Positions 21,479-35,205 of a stretch of 64,000 nucleotides of DNA are shown here, one piece after another (the stretch's first letter is position 1; each line of letters begins with the position of its first letter). Origin of the DNA: a virus (Duplodnaviria; Caudoviricetes); IMG/VR virus record IMGVR_UViG_3300022660_000043; one strand, given 5' to 3'. The notes beneath the pieces were generated by a model. It made no database searches and was not told the DNA's origin. It saw only the letters and a list, made by a program, of their open reading frames with translations. The position numbers and the translations under genes were made by a program.

Positions 21479-22033
21479 TTACTTTGTGCCGGTACTTCCT
21501 TGCCAGCCTTCACCTCTACTGGTCTTCTCCGTGAAAAACTCTTCCTCGGTTGCCTCTACCATTTCGATCTTGTCAGTAGAAATCATATGAGGAATAAACT
21601 GCATGATCTTCTGATCACACTCGATCTCCTGATACTTGTTAGAAGTATTGATCAAATGAAGATGCCACTCACCTTGATAGCTTGCATCAATAACAGAAGC
21701 TCCAAAAACTAGCTTCTTCTTAGTTGCAATACCAGACTTGTTGTTAGCAATCAAAGCAAGCTCGGGGCCAAACTTGCTCTTAATGCCAGAAGGAATAATA
21801 ATATCCTTATGCGGCGCAATATAAATCTTGCCTCCACAGGTAATAAAAGTCTTTCTACGAAGCTTTGCCAAAAATTTAGCAAAAGCTCTATAAGGGGTAG
21901 CAATACCGGGATTCTTAGTAATCAAATCGAATCTAAACTTGAGACTATAAGCAGGAATATAGAAATCAATACCTGCATTCTCATTAGGATTACGGATAGG
22001 ATCCTTTACATCTCTTATCTTAATAAACTGCAT
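21479..22033 (-). CDS. dut: Trimeric dUTPase
   Basis: AGIDF, KSG, VIDASYQGE, MQ, RGEGWQGSTG. Confidence 0.9.
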   Translation of the reverse strand: MQFIKIRDVKDPIRNPNENAGIDFYIPAYSLKFRFDLITKNPGIATPYRAFAKFLAKLRRKTFITCGGKIYIAPHKDIIIPSGIKSKFGPELALIANNKSGIATKKKLVFGASVIDASYQGEWHLHLINTSNKYQEIECDQKIMQFIPHMISTDKIEMVEATEEEFFTEKTSRGEGWQGSTGTK

Positions 22034-23919: not shown

Positions 23920-24636
23920 TTATTCATAGTCTTTATACTGACCTTGGACGTCATATTGAGTATGGTAAATCATTGGTCTGAAAAGCTTAATAATGCAAAA
24001 CTTTTCTGGTCTGACCTTGCAATGATTAATTGCTTTCCAGCCAAAGAAAGGAACCATATACCCAACGATATCACAGTGATCGTAGAAGTTATAAGCTTCA
24101 GCGCAGCAGCTCTTGACGAAGTTGTATGTATCTTTTCCGTAGAAAGGCTTGACACTTCCGTAGGTATAAAGATATGGCTTAATACCAAACTTAAAATAAA
24201 TATCCTCTGCAGCAAGCTGGGCCATACCAGATCCGAGAGACCAGCCAAAAACTTCAACAAAACAATCAGGATGTTCATCTAGTAAAGCTTTAATCTTTTG
24301 TCTCACAGTTGATTGACAAACAAGCCACATATTACCCCAGCCTCTATGTACTTTAAGCTGAATTAACTTTCCCTCAAAAGTGAACTTATCATAGATTTTG
24401 GATGGGAAGTTAAAATTAACTCGCCAATCAGACTTACTAGATGTTTGCTCAAAAATAACTTGAATACAACTTCTAGGCTCATCAAAACGTACTTGAAATT
24501 CTACACTGTACTTCTTACCCTTAAACTCATAAGGAATGCTCTCATATCTAGCTATTTCCAAATTAGTATCAAGCTTATTCAAGTTCTCGGAACAAATAGT
24601 AAAATAGTCTTCGAAATTTAGTCTTTTATACTCCAT
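23920..24636 (-). CDS. Lipase class 3 family alpha/beta hydrolase
   Basis: DW..N, VHRGW, nucleophile elbow GWSLGSG, YTYGS, DIV. Confidence 0.8.
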   Translation of the reverse strand: MEYKRLNFEDYFTICSENLNKLDTNLEIARYESIPYEFKGKKYSVEFQVRFDEPRSCIQVIFEQTSSKSDWRVNFNFPSKIYDKFTFEGKLIQLKVHRGWGNMWLVCQSTVRQKIKALLDEHPDCFVEVFGWSLGSGMAQLAAEDIYFKFGIKPYLYTYGSVKPFYGKDTYNFVKSCCAEAYNFYDHCDIVGYMVPFFGWKAINHCKVRPEKFCIIKLFRPMIYHTQYDVQGQYKDYE

Positions 24637-24709: not shown

Positions 24710-24895
24710 TTAATAACGCCAGGAGGTTCTTTTATTGGCTATATTTTTCTTTTGCTGCTGTAACCATTGATTGTACTCATATTGAGCTTGCCTACAGTAA
24801 TACGAACTTACTTGACCATTAGACTTAGCTGCTGTGCATTCGTGACCTAAAAAATATTGACAAAAATCACATTTACTCTTTGGTCTCTGATTCAT
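24710..24895 (-). CDS. Small Cys-containing hypothetical protein (likely start MNQRP)
   Basis: CDFC..C..C pattern; SD upstream of ATG at 24895. Confidence 0.5.
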   Translation of the reverse strand: MNQRPKSKCDFCQYFLGHECTAAKSNGQVSSYYCRQAQYEYNQWLQQQKKNIANKRTSWRY

Positions 24896-25214
24896 TCTTT
24901 GCCTCAACAGTAGAATCATAATCTGCCTGAAGAAATACGTATCTTTTCGTATAACCCCCAAGCTCTTCCATCTGCTTCTCATACACCTGATTAAAAGCCT
25001 CTACTGCTTCAGCCCCAATAGCTTCAACAACTGCTTTTACCTCAGCTAGAGCTTCGATCGAATTAGTCCTTAGAAACAGATTTACTGTTTCAACTAGCTT
25101 ATCTCTGATCAAGCCATTAAAAAGATAAGTACTTTTAACTTCTGCATAATTACAAGCATCTCCCTGCTTTTCGATATTAGCAGGAATGTTGTCTCTAATA
25201 AGTGTTCCGTTCAT
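24873..25214 (-). CDS. MazG-like / phosphoribosyl-ATP pyrophosphohydrolase-like protein
   Basis: LIRDNIP, KLVE, EALAEV, GGYTKRYVF. Confidence 0.6.
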   Translation of the reverse strand: MNGTLIRDNIPANIEKQGDACNYAEVKSTYLFNGLIRDKLVETVNLFLRTNSIEALAEVKAVVEAIGAEAVEAFNQVYEKQMEELGGYTKRYVFLQADYDSTVEAKNESETKE

Positions 25215-25404: not shown

Positions 25405-26340
25405 TTATTTATTATTTCCAAATAACTCATAGTCAACAACTCCAGTTTCTAAGTCTATTTTATTAATATGTAAAAAACATTTACCTGCTGCTAACAAATT
25501 TTTTTTAAACGCGGCCAGTAAGTCTTTAAACGTTTGAGTTGTTTCAACACCAACTTCTCCACTAACTCGATGATAAGCAATATCAGCGGTTCGATATTCA
25601 GAAGAAATTAACAATACAGCATCATGTGGATTTTGTGCTGCAATTGTTGAATTTGATTCTAATAATTTAACATCTACTCGTATTTTACAATTATCAATAA
25701 TCAAATCATAATCCGCAAGACGCCCCGGATCTCCACGATAAAGATAACCATCAAACTTATCTAACTTTTTGAAAATAATTCCACACTCTTTAGCAGCCTT
25801 CTCAAAAATATCCTGTTGAATGCTACTATTTAACTTCTTTTGAACTTTTTGCTCTGTAGAGCCCGTCCAAGTTTTTGAGCCAATTGTTGAAAGCAACTTC
25901 GCGGTTTCTGGTGAAATACTGTTCGTTTTAAGTATTGAATCGTAGACATTTTGGCAAAGAGGACTTCTCGAATCAATATATTTTTCAGCATTCTTTGTAT
26001 TTTTGCCATACTCATCGAGCCATACATCAAAGGTATGTTTATTACCAGTTGCATCTAAAAATGTAAGCCATACTAGATAGCTTTTACCAAATTGGCCATA
26101 ATAAGTCTGACAAATTTCAGCTTTTTTATCTACTCTAACTCTGTCACCACAAGCTAAAAACAGTTTTAATTTTTCATCCCAATCTGCCTCAGGTAAGACA
26201 GATCTATTTTCTATATTATTTGGGCACTTCCATTTTTGTGCAAGGAAATTATATCTCCAAGGTTCAATACTTAGTTCTACCCAATGGTTTTGTAACGGCT
26301 CAATATAGTCTGTTACTAAAGAATCTGTAAAATGTTGCAT
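25405..26340 (-). CDS. Putative PD-(D/E)XK endonuclease
   Basis: ADYDL..VDVK motif in the C-terminal half. Confidence 0.4.
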   Translation of the reverse strand: MQHFTDSLVTDYIEPLQNHWVELSIEPWRYNFLAQKWKCPNNIENRSVLPEADWDEKLKLFLACGDRVRVDKKAEICQTYYGQFGKSYLVWLTFLDATGNKHTFDVWLDEYGKNTKNAEKYIDSRSPLCQNVYDSILKTNSISPETAKLLSTIGSKTWTGSTEQKVQKKLNSSIQQDIFEKAAKECGIIFKKLDKFDGYLYRGDPGRLADYDLIIDNCKIRVDVKLLESNSTIAAQNPHDAVLLISSEYRTADIAYHRVSGEVGVETTQTFKDLLAAFKKNLLAAGKCFLHINKIDLETGVVDYELFGNNK

Positions 26341-26855
26341 TATCCTTTAAGCTCCTCCAAATGAATCTTTTTGTTATAAACATGAAGTTTAGTCTTATAG
26401 CCTTCGTCCTCTACTTCAGGCAAAATTTTCCAAAGCTCTAGTTCAGAATATTCATCAAGATTAGGAAAGAAAACTTCTGCTTCGCCATCTGCGTCCACTT
26501 TGTTTACATATACCTTATCATAATAGGGAAGCATAGACTTATAAAGCATTCCACCCCCAATTATAAACACATTTTGAGTTTTAGATAACTCTGTAATTAG
26601 CTTGATTAAATCTTCAAAACTATGCACACAAAAGCAATCATCTCTATCATAGCCTTCTGGACAAATAACTATAGTAGATCTGCCTTTAAGTGGCTTACTG
26701 CTTGGAAAACTAAGTAATGTGTTCAAGCCGCAGACGACAATGCTATCAGCAGTAGTTTGTTTAAAGAATTGCATATCTTTTTTAAGATTAAAAAGTAAAC
26801 TATTAGCTTTTCCGAGTCCCCAATTTTTATCTACACAGCAAATACCAATAATCAT
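26340..26855 (-). CDS. folA: Dihydrofolate reductase
   Basis: DMQFFKQTT, KPLKGR, IIGGG, FFP. Confidence 0.92.
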   Translation of the reverse strand: MIIGICCVDKNWGLGKANSLLFNLKKDMQFFKQTTADSIVVCGLNTLLSFPSSKPLKGRSTIVICPEGYDRDDCFCVHSFEDLIKLITELSKTQNVFIIGGGMLYKSMLPYYDKVYVNKVDADGEAEVFFPNLDEYSELELWKILPEVEDEGYKTKLHVYNKKIHLEELKG

Positions 26856-26858
26856 GTT

Positions 26859-27011
26859 TTAGCTCTCCTTCATTACTTGTTTCATATATTCTTGAAGTGC
26901 AATCCTGATTGCGCCACTAACAGTCAAATCTAACTTCTGTGATAAAGATTTAAGCTGCTCATAAAGCTCAGGACTTAAATCTAAACTAAGTCTTATACGA
27001 TCTTTTTTCAT
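26859..27011 (-). CDS. Ribbon-helix-helix (CopG-like) protein, 50 aa (not in ORF track)
   Basis: MKKDRIRLSLDLSPELYEQLKSLSQKLDLTVSGAIRIALQEYMKQVMKES; SD inside the upstream endonuclease gene. Confidence 0.8.
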   Translation of the reverse strand: MKKDRIRLSLDLSPELYEQLKSLSQKLDLTVSGAIRIALQEYMKQVMKES

Positions 27012-27723
27012 TATTAATCCTTTCTAGCATCAAATTCAAATCTGACTCTCTACACCAATAATAACCCTTACCATTATGTAATCTTTCACAACAATATTTT
27101 ATGTATGCAGCAGTTGTACTTAAAGCTAAACCAGCCTCATGATAGCTTGAAAATATATTAATAATATTCCCAGCACTGTTTAACTGGTAAACAGTTTTAC
27201 CTGCAGTTTTGCCATTACAAAGTTTAAACTTGTACTGCTCATATTGACTAGCCAAACACCATCCAAAGCCTCGATACTGGCGTAATTTTCCATTGCAGCA
27301 GCGTCCAATATTACTCCTAGCACTATTAAAATCTTCAGGATAAAGCTGTCTAGCCGCTTCTCTAATGCTTGAATATGTTGCAAGTATTTGTTTATCTAAG
27401 CTAAGTTGATAAACAGCTTCACCTTGGGTTGTTTGACCTGAGCCACCAATTAATAAGTTATAACCATTCTCAATACTATCAAACTGATTTATATAAGCAA
27501 TTTCAAGCTCATCTGCTTCCTGTTTTGTAAGATTCTCTATTAAAACTTGATGCTCAAAATTCTCCCAGCCATACTTAAGAATAGCTCTGTAAAATTTTTG
27601 TTGAGACTTATAGCCACTCCCATCAGAGTGCCATCTATGGGTAGGGTTAGTATAACAAGTTTGCCCAATGTAACATTTACCATTAATTTTATTCGTATGT
27701 TTATAAATTAAATAAGATTTCAT
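26986..27723 (-). CDS. GIY-YIG homing endonuclease with NUMOD1/IENR1-like repeats
   Basis: YLIYKHTN..YIGQT, KYGWENF, GYN, YSSIREAAR. Confidence 0.88.
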   Translation of the reverse strand: MKSYLIYKHTNKINGKCYIGQTCYTNPTHRWHSDGSGYKSQQKFYRAILKYGWENFEHQVLIENLTKQEADELEIAYINQFDSIENGYNLLIGGSGQTTQGEAVYQLSLDKQILATYSSIREAARQLYPEDFNSARSNIGRCCNGKLRQYRGFGWCLASQYEQYKFKLCNGKTAGKTVYQLNSAGNIINIFSSYHEAGLALSTTAAYIKYCCERLHNGKGYYWCRESDLNLMLERINNEKRSYKT

Positions 27724-28024: not shown

Positions 28025-28486
28025 CTAACACTCCTTTTCTATAAGTTGTCTTAAAATTCCATCATCTGACCTCATATAAATAACACCATTCTTATTTATT
28101 ATACGATTAATACCTGCATTTTTAATTAGGCGCAAACAAATCTCACAGGGCCAAGCTTCACACTCAAGGGCTATGCCAGATTTTACATCATAACCTGAAA
28201 GATAAAGATCTGCTCCAATCATATCTTTACGTGACGCACTGAGCAAAGCATTCATTTCTGCATGAACTGCGGGACAAGTTTCAAAAGTAGCCATATCTTT
28301 GCCACTATTACATTTAGTACATACTGCACAATGTGCTTCACCTCTAGGTGGATTATTATAGCCAGTACTGAGAATCTCTCCCTCCGAAACTACCACCGCT
28401 CCATAATGTTTTCTAAGACAAGTAGATCTTTCAGAAACTGCTTTAGCTATATTAAGATAATATTCATCTAATGACGGTCTTTTCAT
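28025..28486 (-). CDS. dCMP deaminase
   Basis: RSTC, TGYN, HAEMNA, PCEIC. Confidence 0.9.
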   Translation of the reverse strand: MKRPSLDEYYLNIAKAVSERSTCLRKHYGAVVVSEGEILSTGYNNPPRGEAHCAVCTKCNSGKDMATFETCPAVHAEMNALLSASRKDMIGADLYLSGYDVKSGIALECEAWPCEICLRLIKNAGINRIINKNGVIYMRSDDGILRQLIEKEC

Positions 28487-28559: not shown

Positions 28560-28829
28560 TTAAAGCGGAATTATTTCAACTTTAGGTAATCTCTGACTAG
28601 GTGTTTCAGAACTCGGCTGCTTCACCACAGAAGCCTTAAAATCTTTAATAAAAGCAATAGCTTCCTTGCATTCATCACAAACCCAAGGATAATAATTACA
28701 ACCATAAGGAACCTCTCGTACATTATCACAAAGTAGACACCCTTGCATTGCTTTTATTGGCCCTATTTCAAGAGTTCTTACCTCTGTAGGGTCTATATCC
28801 AATTTTGTTGTACTCTTTTCTGAATCCAT
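28560..28829 (-). CDS. Small zinc-ribbon protein
   Basis: CLLC..VCDECKEAI. Confidence 0.55.
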   Translation of the reverse strand: MDSEKSTTKLDIDPTEVRTLEIGPIKAMQGCLLCDNVREVPYGCNYYPWVCDECKEAIAFIKDFKASVVKQPSSETPSQRLPKVEIIPL

Positions 28830-29377
28830 TACATCTCCTCATAAGCTTTCTTTAGAAATTCTGTATTATTTTTATACCACTCAAAAAATGCTTCTTCACC
28901 GCAGGTAACTAAATTCATAATCATCTTATCAAGAAATTCTTCAGAGGCAGGATGCTGAATTCTTTTACCTTTGCATTTATTTTCCCAATAATCTAAAAGT
29001 ATTTCAGGGACCCATCTATCAGGATTATATGCCTTTGAGGCACCGAGCATATCGCAAAAGCTTTCAATAATATATTTATAAGGCATCTTCATAGGAATGA
29101 TTTTACCTTCTTCATCCTCATCCCACCAGTACTGAAAGTGATGTTTATTAGTATGATAATGATGAATCCAAGAAGGTGAGTATCCAAGCTGTTCACGCGC
29201 TACTTGGTGAGGGCTCTTTCTACCGGTATAATATTTACAAATCTTCATTTCAGTAATAGAATACTTACTAAGATCATGTACTAAGCCTTGCCAGATAAGC
29301 CCCATCTTAAAGCAGGCTTTTCTAACAAACTTTCTATGGGTTCTGATAATTTTAAGATGCTTACAGAATTCCTTCAT
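28829..29377 (-). CDS. DUF5662-like HD-superfamily protein
   Basis: H..HDLSKY, WIHH..NKHH, ESFCD. Confidence 0.7.
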   Translation of the reverse strand: MKEFCKHLKIIRTHRKFVRKACFKMGLIWQGLVHDLSKYSITEMKICKYYTGRKSPHQVAREQLGYSPSWIHHYHTNKHHFQYWWDEDEEGKIIPMKMPYKYIIESFCDMLGASKAYNPDRWVPEILLDYWENKCKGKRIQHPASEEFLDKMIMNLVTCGEEAFFEWYKNNTEFLKKAYEEM

Positions 29378-29913: not shown

Positions 29914-30056
29914 TCAGCCACCTCCTTAAGATAGGCTTCGAGAGCTAAACGGATAAGTAAACTTAACGTAATGTCTTTTTCTTCTGCAGCAAGCTTAGCT
30001 TTGTCGATCAGCTCTTTTGAAGCATCAAAATTAACTCGCACTCGTTCTTTTTTCAT
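29910..30056 (-). CDS. Ribbon-helix-helix protein, 48 aa (not in ORF track)
   Basis: MKKERVRVNFDASKELIDKAKLAAEEKDITLSLLIRLALEAYLKEVAE; GAGG SD; paralogue of 26859..27011. Confidence 0.8.
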   Translation of the reverse strand: MKKERVRVNFDASKELIDKAKLAAEEKDITLSLLIRLALEAYLKEVAE

Positions 30057-30747
30057 TATCTAAGTACCTCCACATAAAGCCGCCTGTTTGATGCAGCTTG
30101 CCTGTACAACATTTACTAATATTTTGGTGCTTAATTCCAGTTGATCTTTCTGCCTCAGAGCATGAGCTAAATTCTGCTACAAACTTCCCATCTTTTGTAT
30201 ATTGTAATACACGTTTAGGTTGTCCTTTACTTGCTCCAATAGGCTTTATTTGATAGCTATCATAATCCTCTACGTGGCACCAATAAAATCCATTAGCTGA
30301 ATTTATTGTACCTAAGCAGCAATGACTAATATTAGCTTGACTAATCCCTGTAATTCTTTCCGCCTGTCTAGTGGATTCATATATAGCTAATATATTTTTA
30401 TTGGCATCTAGTTGGTAGATAGCTTTTTGGAAATGCTGAGGCATACTACCACCTAAGCTCGTATTATAGCCACGATTAATACTATCAAACTTAGCAATGT
30501 AATATTGTTCTCGTAAATTTGCATGCTCTGCAGAAATACAGTATTCTAAAATTTCATGATTAAATGAATCCCAACCGTACTTACGAATTGCACTGTGAAA
30601 CTTAGGCTGATTTACGTAACCATTGCCTTTTTGCCAACGTTTTTCAGGATCTTTAACTTGTACCGTTTGGCCTATATAGCACTTATTATTTTTAATATTA
30701 GTATGTCTATAAATTAAATGAGTAAACATCATCATCACCCCACTCAT
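30031..30747 (-). CDS. GIY-YIG homing endonuclease with two NUMOD1-like repeats
   Basis: LIYRHTN..YIGQT, KYGWDSF, GYN, STRQAERITG..NISHCC. Confidence 0.88.
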   Translation of the reverse strand: MSGVMMMFTHLIYRHTNIKNNKCYIGQTVQVKDPEKRWQKGNGYVNQPKFHSAIRKYGWDSFNHEILEYCISAEHANLREQYYIAKFDSINRGYNTSLGGSMPQHFQKAIYQLDANKNILAIYESTRQAERITGISQANISHCCLGTINSANGFYWCHVEDYDSYQIKPIGASKGQPKRVLQYTKDGKFVAEFSSCSEAERSTGIKHQNISKCCTGKLHQTGGFMWRYLDNEKRTSAS

Positions 30748-30785: not shown

Positions 30786-31631
30786 TTACTCAGCTACTTG
30801 AAACTTAGTTGCAAGCTTTGTAGATTCATAACCGACAAGCTCAAAATCATCTTCAGTGAAATCATAAAAATCTTTTACCTCAGAATTAAGCTTAAGCTGT
30901 GGGCCAGGATATTCAGGATTCTGAATAACCTCTTTGACAAGCTCTACATGACGATCATAAATATGAAGGTTATTTACAATATGTACAAGCTCTCCGGGTT
31001 GATAACCACAAACCTGAGCAAGCATATGTACAAGCAGCGCATACTGAATTGTGTCCCAACCACCAGAAGAGGCTGCAGCAAGTAAATCACCGGATCTTTG
31101 AATTACTGTACAATTAAGCTTTCCGTCTGTCACATCCCAAAGAGTTTCATATACACAAGGCGGAAGGTTCATTTCATGAAGATCCTGAGGACACCACATA
31201 GTAGTAATCATTCTACGATCCATAGGCTTGTTCTTCAGAAGATAAATAAGGTTATCTACCTGATCAAACTTACCATAACCATAATCAGAAATCTTACCAA
31301 GCTGATAGCCATAGGTTTTACCAATGGTTCCGTCGTCGCCTTCCCAGGCTCTCCAAATAGCAGCAGACTTTCCAAGCTCGTCTACTACATTAGACTTCTT
31401 CTGCCACATCCAAAGTAGCTCCCTTACTACCCCCTTAAAAGCTTGAGTTCTAAGAGTAAGAATAGGAAATTCCTTGGAAAGATCATAGCGTCTTACAGCG
31501 CAAAAAGTTTTAATAGTATGAGCCGGAGTACCATCAGGCCACTTAGGTCTTACCGAATAATCCTTATCATTAAAACCATTAGTAAGAAGCTCATTAACTT
31601 CATTCTTAAAATAAATATCGGCAACTGACAT
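30786..31631 (-). CDS. thyA: Thymidylate synthase family enzyme (Asn->Asp at the nucleotide-specificity site; possible dCMP methylase)
   Basis: FPILT, ELLW, YGYQ, RRM, LPPC, QRSGD, HIYDRH; likely start MSVAD. Confidence 0.9.
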   Translation of the reverse strand: MSVADIYFKNEVNELLTNGFNDKDYSVRPKWPDGTPAHTIKTFCAVRRYDLSKEFPILTLRTQAFKGVVRELLWMWQKKSNVVDELGKSAAIWRAWEGDDGTIGKTYGYQLGKISDYGYGKFDQVDNLIYLLKNKPMDRRMITTMWCPQDLHEMNLPPCVYETLWDVTDGKLNCTVIQRSGDLLAAASSGGWDTIQYALLVHMLAQVCGYQPGELVHIVNNLHIYDRHVELVKEVIQNPEYPGPQLKLNSEVKDFYDFTEDDFELVGYESTKLATKFQVAE

Positions 31632-31709: not shown

Positions 31710-32201
31710 TTAATTTTCTTCTTTAAGAGCTCTCTTAATTGCTGCAAGAAGCTCTTCATATCTCTGTTTAGTATTCTTATGAAAAATAATTGTTTTCTTA
31801 TGGTCCTCATACCACTTGAAAATCTCATCAAGTTTACCTTGTTTATGACTGAAAGACCAGTGATCACAGAGCATTTCGATAATGTACTCTTCTGGCATTT
31901 CAAGAGCATGAGTACCATCATCATCGTTAATCAGTACCCAATGCTGCCAATGATGAGGGTTTGCATGAATATGATGAAGCCAAGCAAAATTGAACTGCTC
32001 TTCTACTTCTTTAGTCTTAGACTTGCCATAAAAATATTTGTCATAAGCATCATACTCTTCATTGCCCCATTTACTTACGTCATGAATATCAATTACCTGA
32101 CGATACTGATCTTTGATAATCTTATGGTCTACAAGCCACTGATAAGCAGTTTCTACTGCTGTACGATGCTCAATAATATAATTGTCGTAATTTTTACTCA
32201 T
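31710..32201 (-). CDS. DUF5662-like HD-superfamily protein
   Basis: H..HDVSKW, WLHHIHANPHHWQHW, EMLCD. Confidence 0.7.
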   Translation of the reverse strand: MSKNYDNYIIEHRTAVETAYQWLVDHKIIKDQYRQVIDIHDVSKWGNEEYDAYDKYFYGKSKTKEVEEQFNFAWLHHIHANPHHWQHWVLINDDDGTHALEMPEEYIIEMLCDHWSFSHKQGKLDEIFKWYEDHKKTIIFHKNTKQRYEELLAAIKRALKEEN

Positions 32202-32716
32202 ACTAACTCCAATCTAGAAAGTTTATTTTTTAGATCCTCAAGACTACCTGTATTATAAATAATATGATCAAAATCAAAATTATCAAGAGCAGTTTCTGAA
32301 GGATGTTGTTTCTGAGTCTCACTAAGACCATTATCAAAATCTGGTCTAATAACTCTAATTAAAGTTGTGTCAAAGTTTGCTCTCATCTTCTCAACCTCAT
32401 TTACAAAACGACAATCAGGAATAATTACTACATCCCAAGAGTCCTCAAAAAGATTAAGAATACTGATAATAAAATCTACCCAAAAATCAGGCTGTTTAGC
32501 ACAAACTGTATTTGTTCCTACTTGCTGAAGAAGTGTTCTGCCATAATCGTCTTTCTCACCATTCCAGCCGAAAAAAGTCTTACAAATATACTTAAGTAGA
32601 TCTGCGTAGTGAGTAATCAAAACTCTTTTACCCTTCGCCTTATAAGTCTCTTCAAGAATTAAAGCTGAAGTATCTTTACCATGCTGAGCTTTTGCACTGA
32701 TTAAAATAACTTTCAT
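32198..32716 (-). CDS. Deoxynucleoside monophosphate kinase
   Basis: SAKAQHGKDT, YADLLK, RTLLQ, IPDCRFVNE, HPSE. Confidence 0.85.
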   Translation of the reverse strand: MKVILISAKAQHGKDTSALILEETYKAKGKRVLITHYADLLKYICKTFFGWNGEKDDYGRTLLQQVGTNTVCAKQPDFWVDFIISILNLFEDSWDVVIIPDCRFVNEVEKMRANFDTTLIRVIRPDFDNGLSETQKQHPSETALDNFDFDHIIYNTGSLEDLKNKLSRLELV

Positions 32717-34467: not shown

Positions 34468-35205
34468 TTATTCTGTTAATGTTTTTCTAGTATGCCCACA
34501 AATTAAATTTCGGAAGCTTCCGAGGGACATGCCACAATTTTTATATTCTTCGTATAAATTTTTCATGGTTTCTCCATTATGATAACGCTGTCTTATATAT
34601 AATACAGTTTGATCTGATAGTTTACTTCTAGGATTCTTTTCATTTGGGAAGCTATACAAAAGTCTTGCATTATTTTTATGCCAAAGCTTTACTTCTTCAG
34701 TATTTAACTCTGTAAGGACTGTTGGCCACGTTTCCCATGAATATATTTTTTTAAAGCCTGACTTTTGAATCTTATCAGAATAATCTTCATAAATATCTTG
34801 TACAGACTCAACACAAGCTGCATATCTATATCGAATATCTTTGACGTCTGCTTCTGTTACTTTATGGTTATGATGTTGTTCCCCAAATATGCCAGAGACT
34901 CCTTCTCCACCTAAAGTAGCATTATATCCATTATTATAAGTATCATAAAAGCTAATCCAGTAAATTTCTCTGGCATCTAAGACTTTACGGTCTTTAGTAA
35001 AGAGCTCTTCAAGCACTTCAACTTCGAAGTTGTCTTTTCCATATTTTCGTATAGCTCTATATAAAGCTTTATTGTACTCAATATCCTGTTCACAGTCTAA
35101 AGAAGCACGTCTAAAGTGTGATTTTAAACGTGCCTCAATATTAACAGATTTTCCTATGTAGGCGTGATGTGTAATTTTATTAGTTATTTTATATATGCCA
35201 ATCAT
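34468..35205 (-). CDS. GIY-YIG homing endonuclease between the topoisomerase genes
   Basis: GIYKITN..YIGKS, KYGKDNF, GYNATLGG. Confidence 0.88.
   Translation of the reverse strand: MIGIYKITNKITHHAYIGKSVNIEARLKSHFRRASLDCEQDIEYNKALYRAIRKYGKDNFEVEVLEELFTKDRKVLDAREIYWISFYDTYNNGYNATLGGEGVSGIFGEQHHNHKVTEADVKDIRYRYAACVESVQDIYEDYSDKIQKSGFKKIYSWETWPTVLTELNTEEVKLWHKNNARLLYSFPNEKNPRSKLSDQTVLYIRQRYHNGETMKNLYEEYKNCGMSLGSFRNLICGHTRKTLTE

What the first reader, a model, noticed from the sequence alone, without database searches (positions are those of the whole stretch)
30786..31631. ThyA homologue with Asp at the dUMP-selecting Asn: possible dCMP methylase and modified-cytosine genome
Seen: QRSGDLLAAASSGG-W-D-TIQYALLVHMLAQ aligns with E. 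coli QRSCDVFLGLP-F-N177-IASYALLVHMMAQ. The invariant Asn is Asp (GAC, 31053-31055) and there is a 3-residue insertion before it. Established: Asn->Asp at this site (E. coli N177D, L. casei N229D) shifts specificity to dCMP, and T4 dCMP hydroxymethylase has Asp here. Context: DHFR (needed for methylation, not hydroxymethylation), dNMP kinase, dCMP deaminase, dUTPase, a MazG-like enzyme and two HD-like proteins are clustered nearby. Inference: the phage makes 5-methyl-dCMP, either for 5mC-substituted DNA (as in phage Xp12) or as an indirect dTMP route via the deaminase.
Basis: partly seen in the sequence, partly recalled or inferred. Interest (0 to 1): 0.8.

Follow-up and report, generated by a model that had tools for sequence, protein, structure and literature searches.

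The report
Gut-phage thymidylate synthase retuned for cytosine
A family of large animal-gut phages has turned an ordinary bacterial thymine-making enzyme into one that probably methylates cytosine building blocks instead; whether this puts 5-methylcytosine into their DNA as armour against restriction enzymes, or is only a detour to thymine, is still open.

Summary
Observation confirmed. Asp193 (GAC, 31053-31055) sits at the Asn177 site of an intact thymidylate synthase, the only thyA/thyX-type gene in this 221-kb phage. Asp is fixed in 120/120 nearest homologues and in all seven near-complete family genomes. Leu143 is kept, which points to methyl, not hydroxymethyl, transfer. The enzyme arose from a Firmicutes housekeeping ThyA (61% identical, Asn), independently of Xp12's (24%). 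The 3-residue insertion predates Asp. One family member reverted to Asn and has a T4-type dCMP hydroxymethylase plus kinase directly behind the gene; two other reversions show no such partner in the DNA seen. dCMP methylation: about 0.75. 5mC in virion DNA: about 0.4. For it: no cytosine methyltransferases, no avoidance of GGCC/CCGG/GCNGC sites, deaminase missing in 3/7 genomes. Against it: no recognisable dCTPase (the 'MazG' has lost acidic residues and is not conserved), dNMP kinase in only 3/7, and Asp-type ThyA also occurs in two bacteria and a palindrome-avoiding phage. The kind is published (Xp12, MetaGPA), and this scan noted it before on other DNA (75 findings). New here are the independent origin and the natural revertants.

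The parts
30786..31631 (-). ThyA-family enzyme, 281 aa, B. subtilis/Clostridia ThyA type, predicted dCMP C5-methyltransferase; only PF00303 gene in the genome
31053..31055 (-). Asp193 (GAC) at the E. coli Asn177 position
31059..31073 (-). loop with the 3-residue insertion (residues 187-191); also in Asn-type sister enzymes
31152..31166 (-). Leu156 (E. coli L143, kept), catalytic Cys159, Val160 (E. coli H147; Val/Ala/Cys is usual in this ThyA subfamily)
30969..30971 (-). Asn221 in place of E. coli Asp205; shared with Asn-type sister enzymes
32198..32716 (-). dNMP kinase (PF21448), upstream in the same gene run; found in 3 of 7 near-complete family genomes
31710..32201 (-). DUF5662 protein, probable HD-type metallohydrolase, directly upstream
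28829..29377 (-). second DUF5662 protein; core gene of the family; weak structural likeness to HD domains (best Z 6.8, inconclusive); substrate unknown
28025..28486 (-). dCMP-family deaminase (PF00383); found in 4 of 7 near-complete genomes; 25% identical to the Xp12 deaminase
26340..26855 (-). dihydrofolate reductase; core gene, found near the synthase in nearly all loci
24873..25214 (-). degenerate MazG-like ORF, several acidic residues lost, not conserved; unlikely to be the dCTPase
21479..22033 (-). trimeric dUTPase next to the replication genes

Best explanation
The gene encodes a folate-dependent dCMP C5-methyltransferase that evolved inside this phage family from a Firmicutes housekeeping ThyA by an Asn-to-Asp change. 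It transfers a methyl group from methylene-THF to dCMP (Cys159 nucleophile, hydride from folate, DHF recycled by the phage DHFR) to give 5-methyl-dCMP. In this phage the upstream dNMP kinase would send part of the product towards 5-methyl-dCTP and into DNA, giving at least partial 5mC substitution that blocks cytosine-sensitive restriction enzymes. The deaminase would turn another part into thymine nucleotide, so no dUMP synthase is needed. Shown: residues, fold, copy number, gene content, phylogeny. Inferred: dCMP substrate (about 0.75). Inferred more weakly: 5mC in virion DNA (about 0.4; complete Xp12-like replacement about 0.15).
For: Asp at 177 with Leu at 143 is the published signature of dCMP methyl rather than hydroxymethyl transfer (PMC13326640; PMC8670742). 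Five of seven such enzymes made 5mdC in vivo (bioRxiv 2024.12.05.627091). All catalytic residues are intact. It is the only thyA, with no thyX, in all seven near-complete genomes. Synthase, DHFR and DUF5662 are core genes, while deaminase, kinase, thymidine kinase and NrdD are accessory. Natural revertant: L322/G112, a syntenic family member nested in the Asp clade, has Asn and is followed directly by a kinase and a T4 gp42-like dCMP hydroxymethylase (E 5e-37). Contig L520 has a close homologue of that hydroxymethylase plus an alpha-glucosyltransferase. No C5 or PF01555 methyltransferase in 7 near-complete genomes, against C5 hits in 7 of 14 other synthase-bearing viruses. GGCC, CCGG, GCGC, GCNGC, GGNCC and CCNGG are not strongly depleted (lowest 0.75 in five assembled genomes), as in T4, whereas seven cultured Firmicutes phages have at least one such site at 0.00-0.08 (rationale PMC6286503). 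Four relatives carry FolD and Fhs for one-carbon supply.
Against: No MazG or PRA-PH pyrophosphatase in the family genomes searched, whereas Xp12 has one. dNMP kinase was found in only 3 of 7 genomes. About half of 12 habitat-matched Asn-type large viruses also lack site avoidance, so that test is not diagnostic. Asp-type ThyA is the only thyA found in two Clostridiales MAGs and occurs in phage G002, which avoids palindromes and encodes a C5 methyltransferase. Two other Asn reversions show no hydroxymethylase in the DNA seen (20 kb and 1.2 kb). No enzyme assay or base analysis exists.
Confidence: 0.42

Rival explanations
1. The enzyme methylates dCMP, but only as an indirect route to dTMP: 5-methyl-dCMP is deaminated by the phage or host dCMP deaminase, and virion DNA keeps plain cytosine.
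For: No dCTPase found. Kinase missing in 4 of 7 genomes. The same layout (deaminase, Asp ThyA, DHFR, MazG/dUTPase_2) is chromosomal in two bacteria between pta and ackA, and deaminase plus Asp ThyA sit in palindrome-avoiding phage G002. Asn reversions occur at least three times. Gaining a hydroxymethylase that competes for dCMP would also favour the reversion in L322.
Against: The deaminase is absent from 3 of 7 near-complete genomes, including the terminally repeated G004, so those phages would depend on a host enzyme. No C5 methyltransferases and no avoidance of C-rich sites.
Confidence: 0.33
2. It is an ordinary or dual-specificity dUMP methylase in which Asp is tolerated.
For: Asp arose repeatedly in Firmicutes-type ThyA (about 10 clusters at 50% identity) and reverted at least three times. 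A dUTPase that makes dUMP is well conserved nearby. Two of seven Asp enzymes tested gave no 5mdC. From memory, not checked here: engineered Asn-to-Asp mutants keep some dUMP activity.
Against: Asp is fixed across a clade down to 58% identity, while its bacterial housekeeping sister clade keeps Asn. The reversion in L322 coincides with gain of a dCMP hydroxymethylase.
Confidence: 0.22
3. The enzyme hydroxymethylates or hydroxylates dCMP as T4 gp42 or RB69 gp48 do.
For: Asp at position 177 is shared with those enzymes.
Against: Leu143 is kept where those enzymes have Asp/Glu. Fold and sequence are ThyA-like (44% to B. subtilis ThyA; only 23% to the L322 hydroxymethylase). DHFR is core.
Confidence: 0.03

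Closest known systems
Xanthomonas phage Xp12 deoxycytidylate C5-methyltransferase module (MT664984: TS homologue, dCMP deaminase, DHFR, PRA-PH)
   Same: Asp at the 177 site, single TS homologue, deaminase and DHFR close by, no C5 DNA methyltransferase.
   Different: Only 24% identical and on a distant branch, so an independent origin. No PRA-PH/MazG pyrophosphatase here. Deaminase and kinase are accessory in this family. 220-kb phage with a T4-like capsid from animal gut, not a 64-kb Xanthomonas phage.
MetaGPA Asp177 thymidylate synthases with 5mC-selective deaminases (Yang 2021 eLife PMC8670742; bioRxiv 2024.12.05.627091)
   Same: Asp-type synthase within about 3 kb of a PF00383 deaminase on a viral contig; His147 replaced.
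   Different: Whether this family was among their candidates could not be checked; 5mC selectivity of this deaminase is untested; Firmicutes are not mentioned in the preprint text.
B. subtilis ThyA and Clostridia-type housekeeping ThyA (PDB 1b02)
   Same: Same fold (Z 39.9, rmsd 1.2) and catalytic residues; 61% identical to chromosomal thyA-DHFR-upp enzymes that share the insertion.
   Different: Those all carry Asn at the specificity site.
T4 gp42 dCMP hydroxymethylase
   Same: Asp at the 177 site; one family member (L322) carries a true gp42 homologue.
   Different: This enzyme keeps Leu143, is ThyA-like throughout and is tied to DHFR.

Membership tests
Thymidylate synthase superfamily (PF00303) | HMM match and fold with Cys nucleophile, RSxD motif, paired Arg, Glu58, Tyr94, His207/Tyr209 | tested here: met
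Canonical ThyA (dUMP methylase) | Asn at position 177 | tested here: not met
   Asp193
Xp12-type dCMP methyltransferase | Asp at position 177 | tested here: met
Xp12-type dCMP methyltransferase | hydrophobic residue at 143 and a DHFR partner (methyl, not hydroxymethyl) | tested here: met
   Leu156; DHFR core
Xp12-type dCMP methyltransferase | common descent with the Xp12 enzyme | tested here: not met
   24% identity; sister to bacterial Asn ThyA; quick trees with SH-aLRT only, Xp12 on a long branch
Xp12-type dCMP methyltransferase | measured dCMP to 5mdCMP activity | not testable with these tools
   needs an assay
Full 5mC-substitution system | dCTP-removing pyrophosphatase (MazG, PRA-PH, gp56 type) | tested here: not met
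   none in the 4-5 genomes searched, found in Xp12; DUF5662 is an untested candidate
Full 5mC-substitution system | phage dNMP kinase for the modified nucleotide | tested here: inconclusive
   present here and in 3 of 7 genomes; substrate untested
Full 5mC-substitution system | no second dUMP synthase; deaminase supplies T | tested here: inconclusive
   no second thyA/thyX; deaminase in 4 of 7
Full 5mC-substitution system | no avoidance of cytosine-type restriction sites and no C5 methyltransferase | tested here: inconclusive
   met in this family, but about half of the Asn-type gut viruses also lack avoidance
Full 5mC-substitution system | 5mC in virion DNA | not testable with these tools
   listed runs are kept only as assembled contigs
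T4 gp42-type dCMP hydroxymethylase | acidic residue at 143 and gp42-like sequence | tested here: not met

The most novel reading that the evidence does not exclude
A widespread family of 200-240 kb animal-gut phages, probably of Firmicutes, replaces much or all of its cytosine with 5-methylcytosine. It does so with a dCMP methylase derived independently from a host-type ThyA, with an HD-like DUF5662 protein as a new kind of dCTP-removing enzyme, and one branch swapped this system for T4-style hydroxymethylcytosine.
Probability: 0.2. Interest if true: 0.75.

Novelty: new variant of a known kind. Interest (0 to 1): 0.5.

Why it matters
Pre-replicative 5mC substitution is characterised mainly in Xp12 and its relatives. 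An independent origin in an abundant gut phage family would show that the switch is one mutation away in Firmicutes-type ThyA, and would mean that many genes annotated 'thymidylate synthase' do not make dTMP directly. The family supplies natural near-matched pairs (Asp versus Asn at 61-76% identity) for testing dUMP/dCMP specificity, plus candidate 5mC-selective deaminases and kinases. If only the detour to thymine holds, it is still an alternative dTMP pathway, also seen here in two bacterial genomes.

Tried and rejected
Second thyA, thyX or hydroxymethylase in this genome: none. The insertion and the Asp205-to-Asn change as specificity markers: rejected, both occur in Asn-type enzymes, including chromosomal ones. 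The window's MazG-like ORF as dCTPase: rejected. The dUTPase as an altered dCTPase: motifs vary between two subtypes in the family, nothing diagnostic. DUF5662 as a marker of the Asp system: rejected as specific, it also occurs in five Asn-type large viruses; its fold search gave only weak HD-domain matches (Z up to 6.8), the Atlas returned only DUF5662, and no paper names it. Restriction-site avoidance looked decisive against cultured phages but not against habitat-matched controls. A search for more family members that pair the hydroxymethylase with an Asn synthase found only L322; most homologues lie in other phages. The primary N177D/N229D papers were not held. The careful tree did not finish; both trees are quick searches.

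Full report
Observation. The minus-strand ORF 30786-31631 encodes 281 residues with a full PF00303 match. Codon 31053-31055 reads GAC, Asp193. Against solved structures the nearest are B. subtilis ThyA (1b02, E 1e-71), and Asp193 aligns with the Asn of the F-N motif after a three-residue gap. A model with mean pLDDT 96.9 places it at the start of helix 192-207 and matches 1b02 at Z 39.9, rmsd 1.2 over 276 residues. By motif, the equivalents of E58, W80, Y94, R126, R127, L143, C146, Q165, R166, S167, D169, H207 and Y209 are intact; H147 is Val and D205 is Asn. The neighbouring dNMP kinase, two DUF5662 genes, deaminase, DHFR and dUTPase are real. The MazG-like ORF has no family hit and has lost several acidic residues that its two homologues keep.

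What the genome is. A 221,361-base virus record, 95% complete, with this as the only thyA and no thyX. The capsid is T4-like, with best named matches at 27-29% (Bacillus phages HSE3 and SP-15, Listeria phage LIS04). Runs that hold the stretch are animal feces metagenomes, seven of them possibly the source. The host is not shown; a Firmicutes host is inferred from the gene relationships, and relatives are binned with Lachnospiraceae and Bacteroidales MAGs. Six further near-complete relatives (G003, G004, G046, G049, G050, G051) each have only Asp-type synthase genes (G049's is frameshifted; G050's second hit lies at the contig start and looks like a terminal overlap) and no thyX.

Distribution of Asp. 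All 120 nearest clusters have Asp, as do viral loci down to 58% identity. The Clostridia ThyAs at 47-56% have Asn and no insertion, apart from one exception discussed below. A second search gave 59 Asp and 6 Asn. Three of the Asn enzymes form a bacterial clade; the two looked up are chromosomal thyA-DHFR-upp genes that share the insertion. That clade is sister to the phage clade (SH-aLRT 99 for each clade, 89 for the join; quick tree). The Xp12 enzyme is 24% identical and far away on a long branch. So Asp arose once at the base of this phage clade, from a host-type Asn enzyme that already had the insertion and a non-His residue at 147. Asp also arose separately in other Firmicutes-type ThyAs.

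What the residues predict. Published work ties Asp177 to dCMP preference and to contigs with modified cytosine, with position 147 as the second marker (PMC8670742). Leu143 separates methyl transfer from the hydroxymethylases and hydroxylases, which have Asp or Glu there (PMC13326640). Five of seven Asp177 enzymes tested with T4 gp1 put 5mdC into plasmid DNA (bioRxiv 2024.12.05.627091). Val at 147 is usual for this subfamily, so it adds little on its own.

The natural revertant. L322 (G112, 36 kb) is a family member by its syntenic DnaC, DnaB, primase, SSB and PolA at 42-64%, and its synthase is nested among Asp enzymes. It has Asn (codon AAT). Directly downstream are a thymidylate-kinase-like gene and a T4 gp42-like dCMP hydroxymethylase with the Asp179 equivalent, and no deaminase in the 21-kb locus. 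This is the T4 division of labour. It is what one expects if the Asp enzyme normally acts on dCMP and became free, or was forced, to return to dUMP once another enzyme took the dCMP. It is a single event. Two other reversions show no hydroxymethylase in 20 kb (P0462, a more distant, rearranged phage) and 1.2 kb (P0440) of context. Contig L520 has an 84% identical hydroxymethylase with a kinase, an alpha-glucosyltransferase and FolD.

Where the product goes. Across five assembled genomes the synthase, DHFR and DUF5662 are core. The deaminase is in 4 of 7 and the dNMP kinase in 3 of 7; thymidine kinase and NrdD are patchy. Four relatives add FolD and Fhs. No C5 methyltransferase was found in 23 family records, seven near-complete, against hits in 7 of 14 other near-complete synthase-bearing viruses, five of them strong. 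This genome has a Dam adenine methyltransferase. These counts are small and not independent. No MazG or PRA-PH enzyme was found, though Xp12 rings. That is the main gap for a fully substituted genome. DUF5662 has invariant His, HD and HH residues and weak likeness to HD domains, so it could fill the gap, but it also occurs in Asn-type viruses.

Restriction sites. Coliphages with a hydroxymethylase avoid 2.4% of host sites against 55.8% for those without (PMC6286503). In five family genomes GGCC, CCGG, CGCG, GCGC, GCNGC, GGNCC and CCNGG stand at 0.75-1.5 of Markov expectation, with moderate loss mainly of CATG, CTAG, GATC or TCGA, much as in T4. Seven cultured Firmicutes phages each have at least one such site at 0.00-0.08. 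Among 12 habitat-matched Asn-type large viruses, five fall to 0.3 or below and the rest do not. The result fits modified cytosine but does not prove it.

Asp without a likely 5mC genome. Two related Clostridiales MAGs have an Asp-type ThyA as their only thyA, in a chromosomal run with a deaminase, DHFR and a MazG/dUTPase_2 protein between pta and ackA; the one searched has no thyX. Phage G002 has an Asp enzyme and a deaminase beside an ORF with C5 methyltransferase motifs, and strongly avoids palindromes (6-mer ratio 0.61). These belong to another branch, but they show that the residue alone does not imply substitution.

Verdict. dCMP methylation about 0.75; substantial 5mC in virion DNA about 0.4; indirect dTMP route only about 0.33; ordinary or dual dUMP enzyme about 0.22. 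It works like the Xp12 enzyme but is not of its lineage. Earlier notes of this scan report the same residue in at least 68 genomes, including relatives of this phage; they are not independent support. New variant of a known kind, interest 0.5.

Noticed in passing
L322:10001-13712 (IMGVR_UViG_3300001598_001490): Family member with the synthase reverted to Asn, followed by a kinase, a T4 gp42-like dCMP hydroxymethylase, DUF5662 and DHFR.
   Followed up: yes
L520:2226-4876 (NFZD01006833.1): Kinase, DNA alpha-glucosyltransferase (PF11440) and dCMP hydroxymethylase in a gut contig sharing FolD and other genes with G112: a probable glucosyl-hmC phage. Hydroxymethylase homologues at 69-77% also lie on gut virus contigs of up to 386 kb (L507-L534).
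   Followed up: partly
L102:3870-7560 and L149 (G001, G006): Chromosomal run NTPase/deaminase, Asp-type ThyA, DHFR, MazG/dUTPase_2 between pta and ackA in two Clostridiales MAGs, their only thyA: candidate cellular route to dTMP through 5-methyl-dCMP.
   Followed up: partly
L027:6270-11314, L400, L402 (G002, G113): Separate Asp-type ThyA plus deaminase in 70-86 kb phages; G002 avoids palindromes and has a C5 methyltransferase-like gene, G113 avoids C-rich sites much less.
   Followed up: partly
window 13069-17341: Family A DNA polymerase in two ORFs split inside the polymerase domain by a GIY-YIG endonuclease gene (14434-15300); probably a group I intron.
   Followed up: partly
window 26986-27723, 30031-30747, 34468-35205: Three GIY-YIG-type endonuclease genes inserted in the nucleotide and topoisomerase cluster; a small RHH gene follows at least one of them.
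   Followed up: no
window 23920-24636: Lipase class 3 gene in the nucleotide-metabolism cluster, present in many relatives at 63-88% identity; role unexplained.
   Followed up: no
G004:36230-39505, G051:187758-192499, G046, G049: Relatives carry Fhs and FolD; some also have DUF1599 (Nmad1) and nucleoside 2-deoxyribosyltransferase-like genes next to the synthase.
   Followed up: partly
window 28829-29377, 31710-32201 and G000:118713-119141: DUF5662 occurs in two to three copies in every near-complete family genome; HD-like fold, no literature found.
   Followed up: partly
L224:1104-1983 (G049): Synthase gene is frameshifted just before the catalytic Cys; several other genes of this record are also split, so probably sequencing error.
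   Followed up: no
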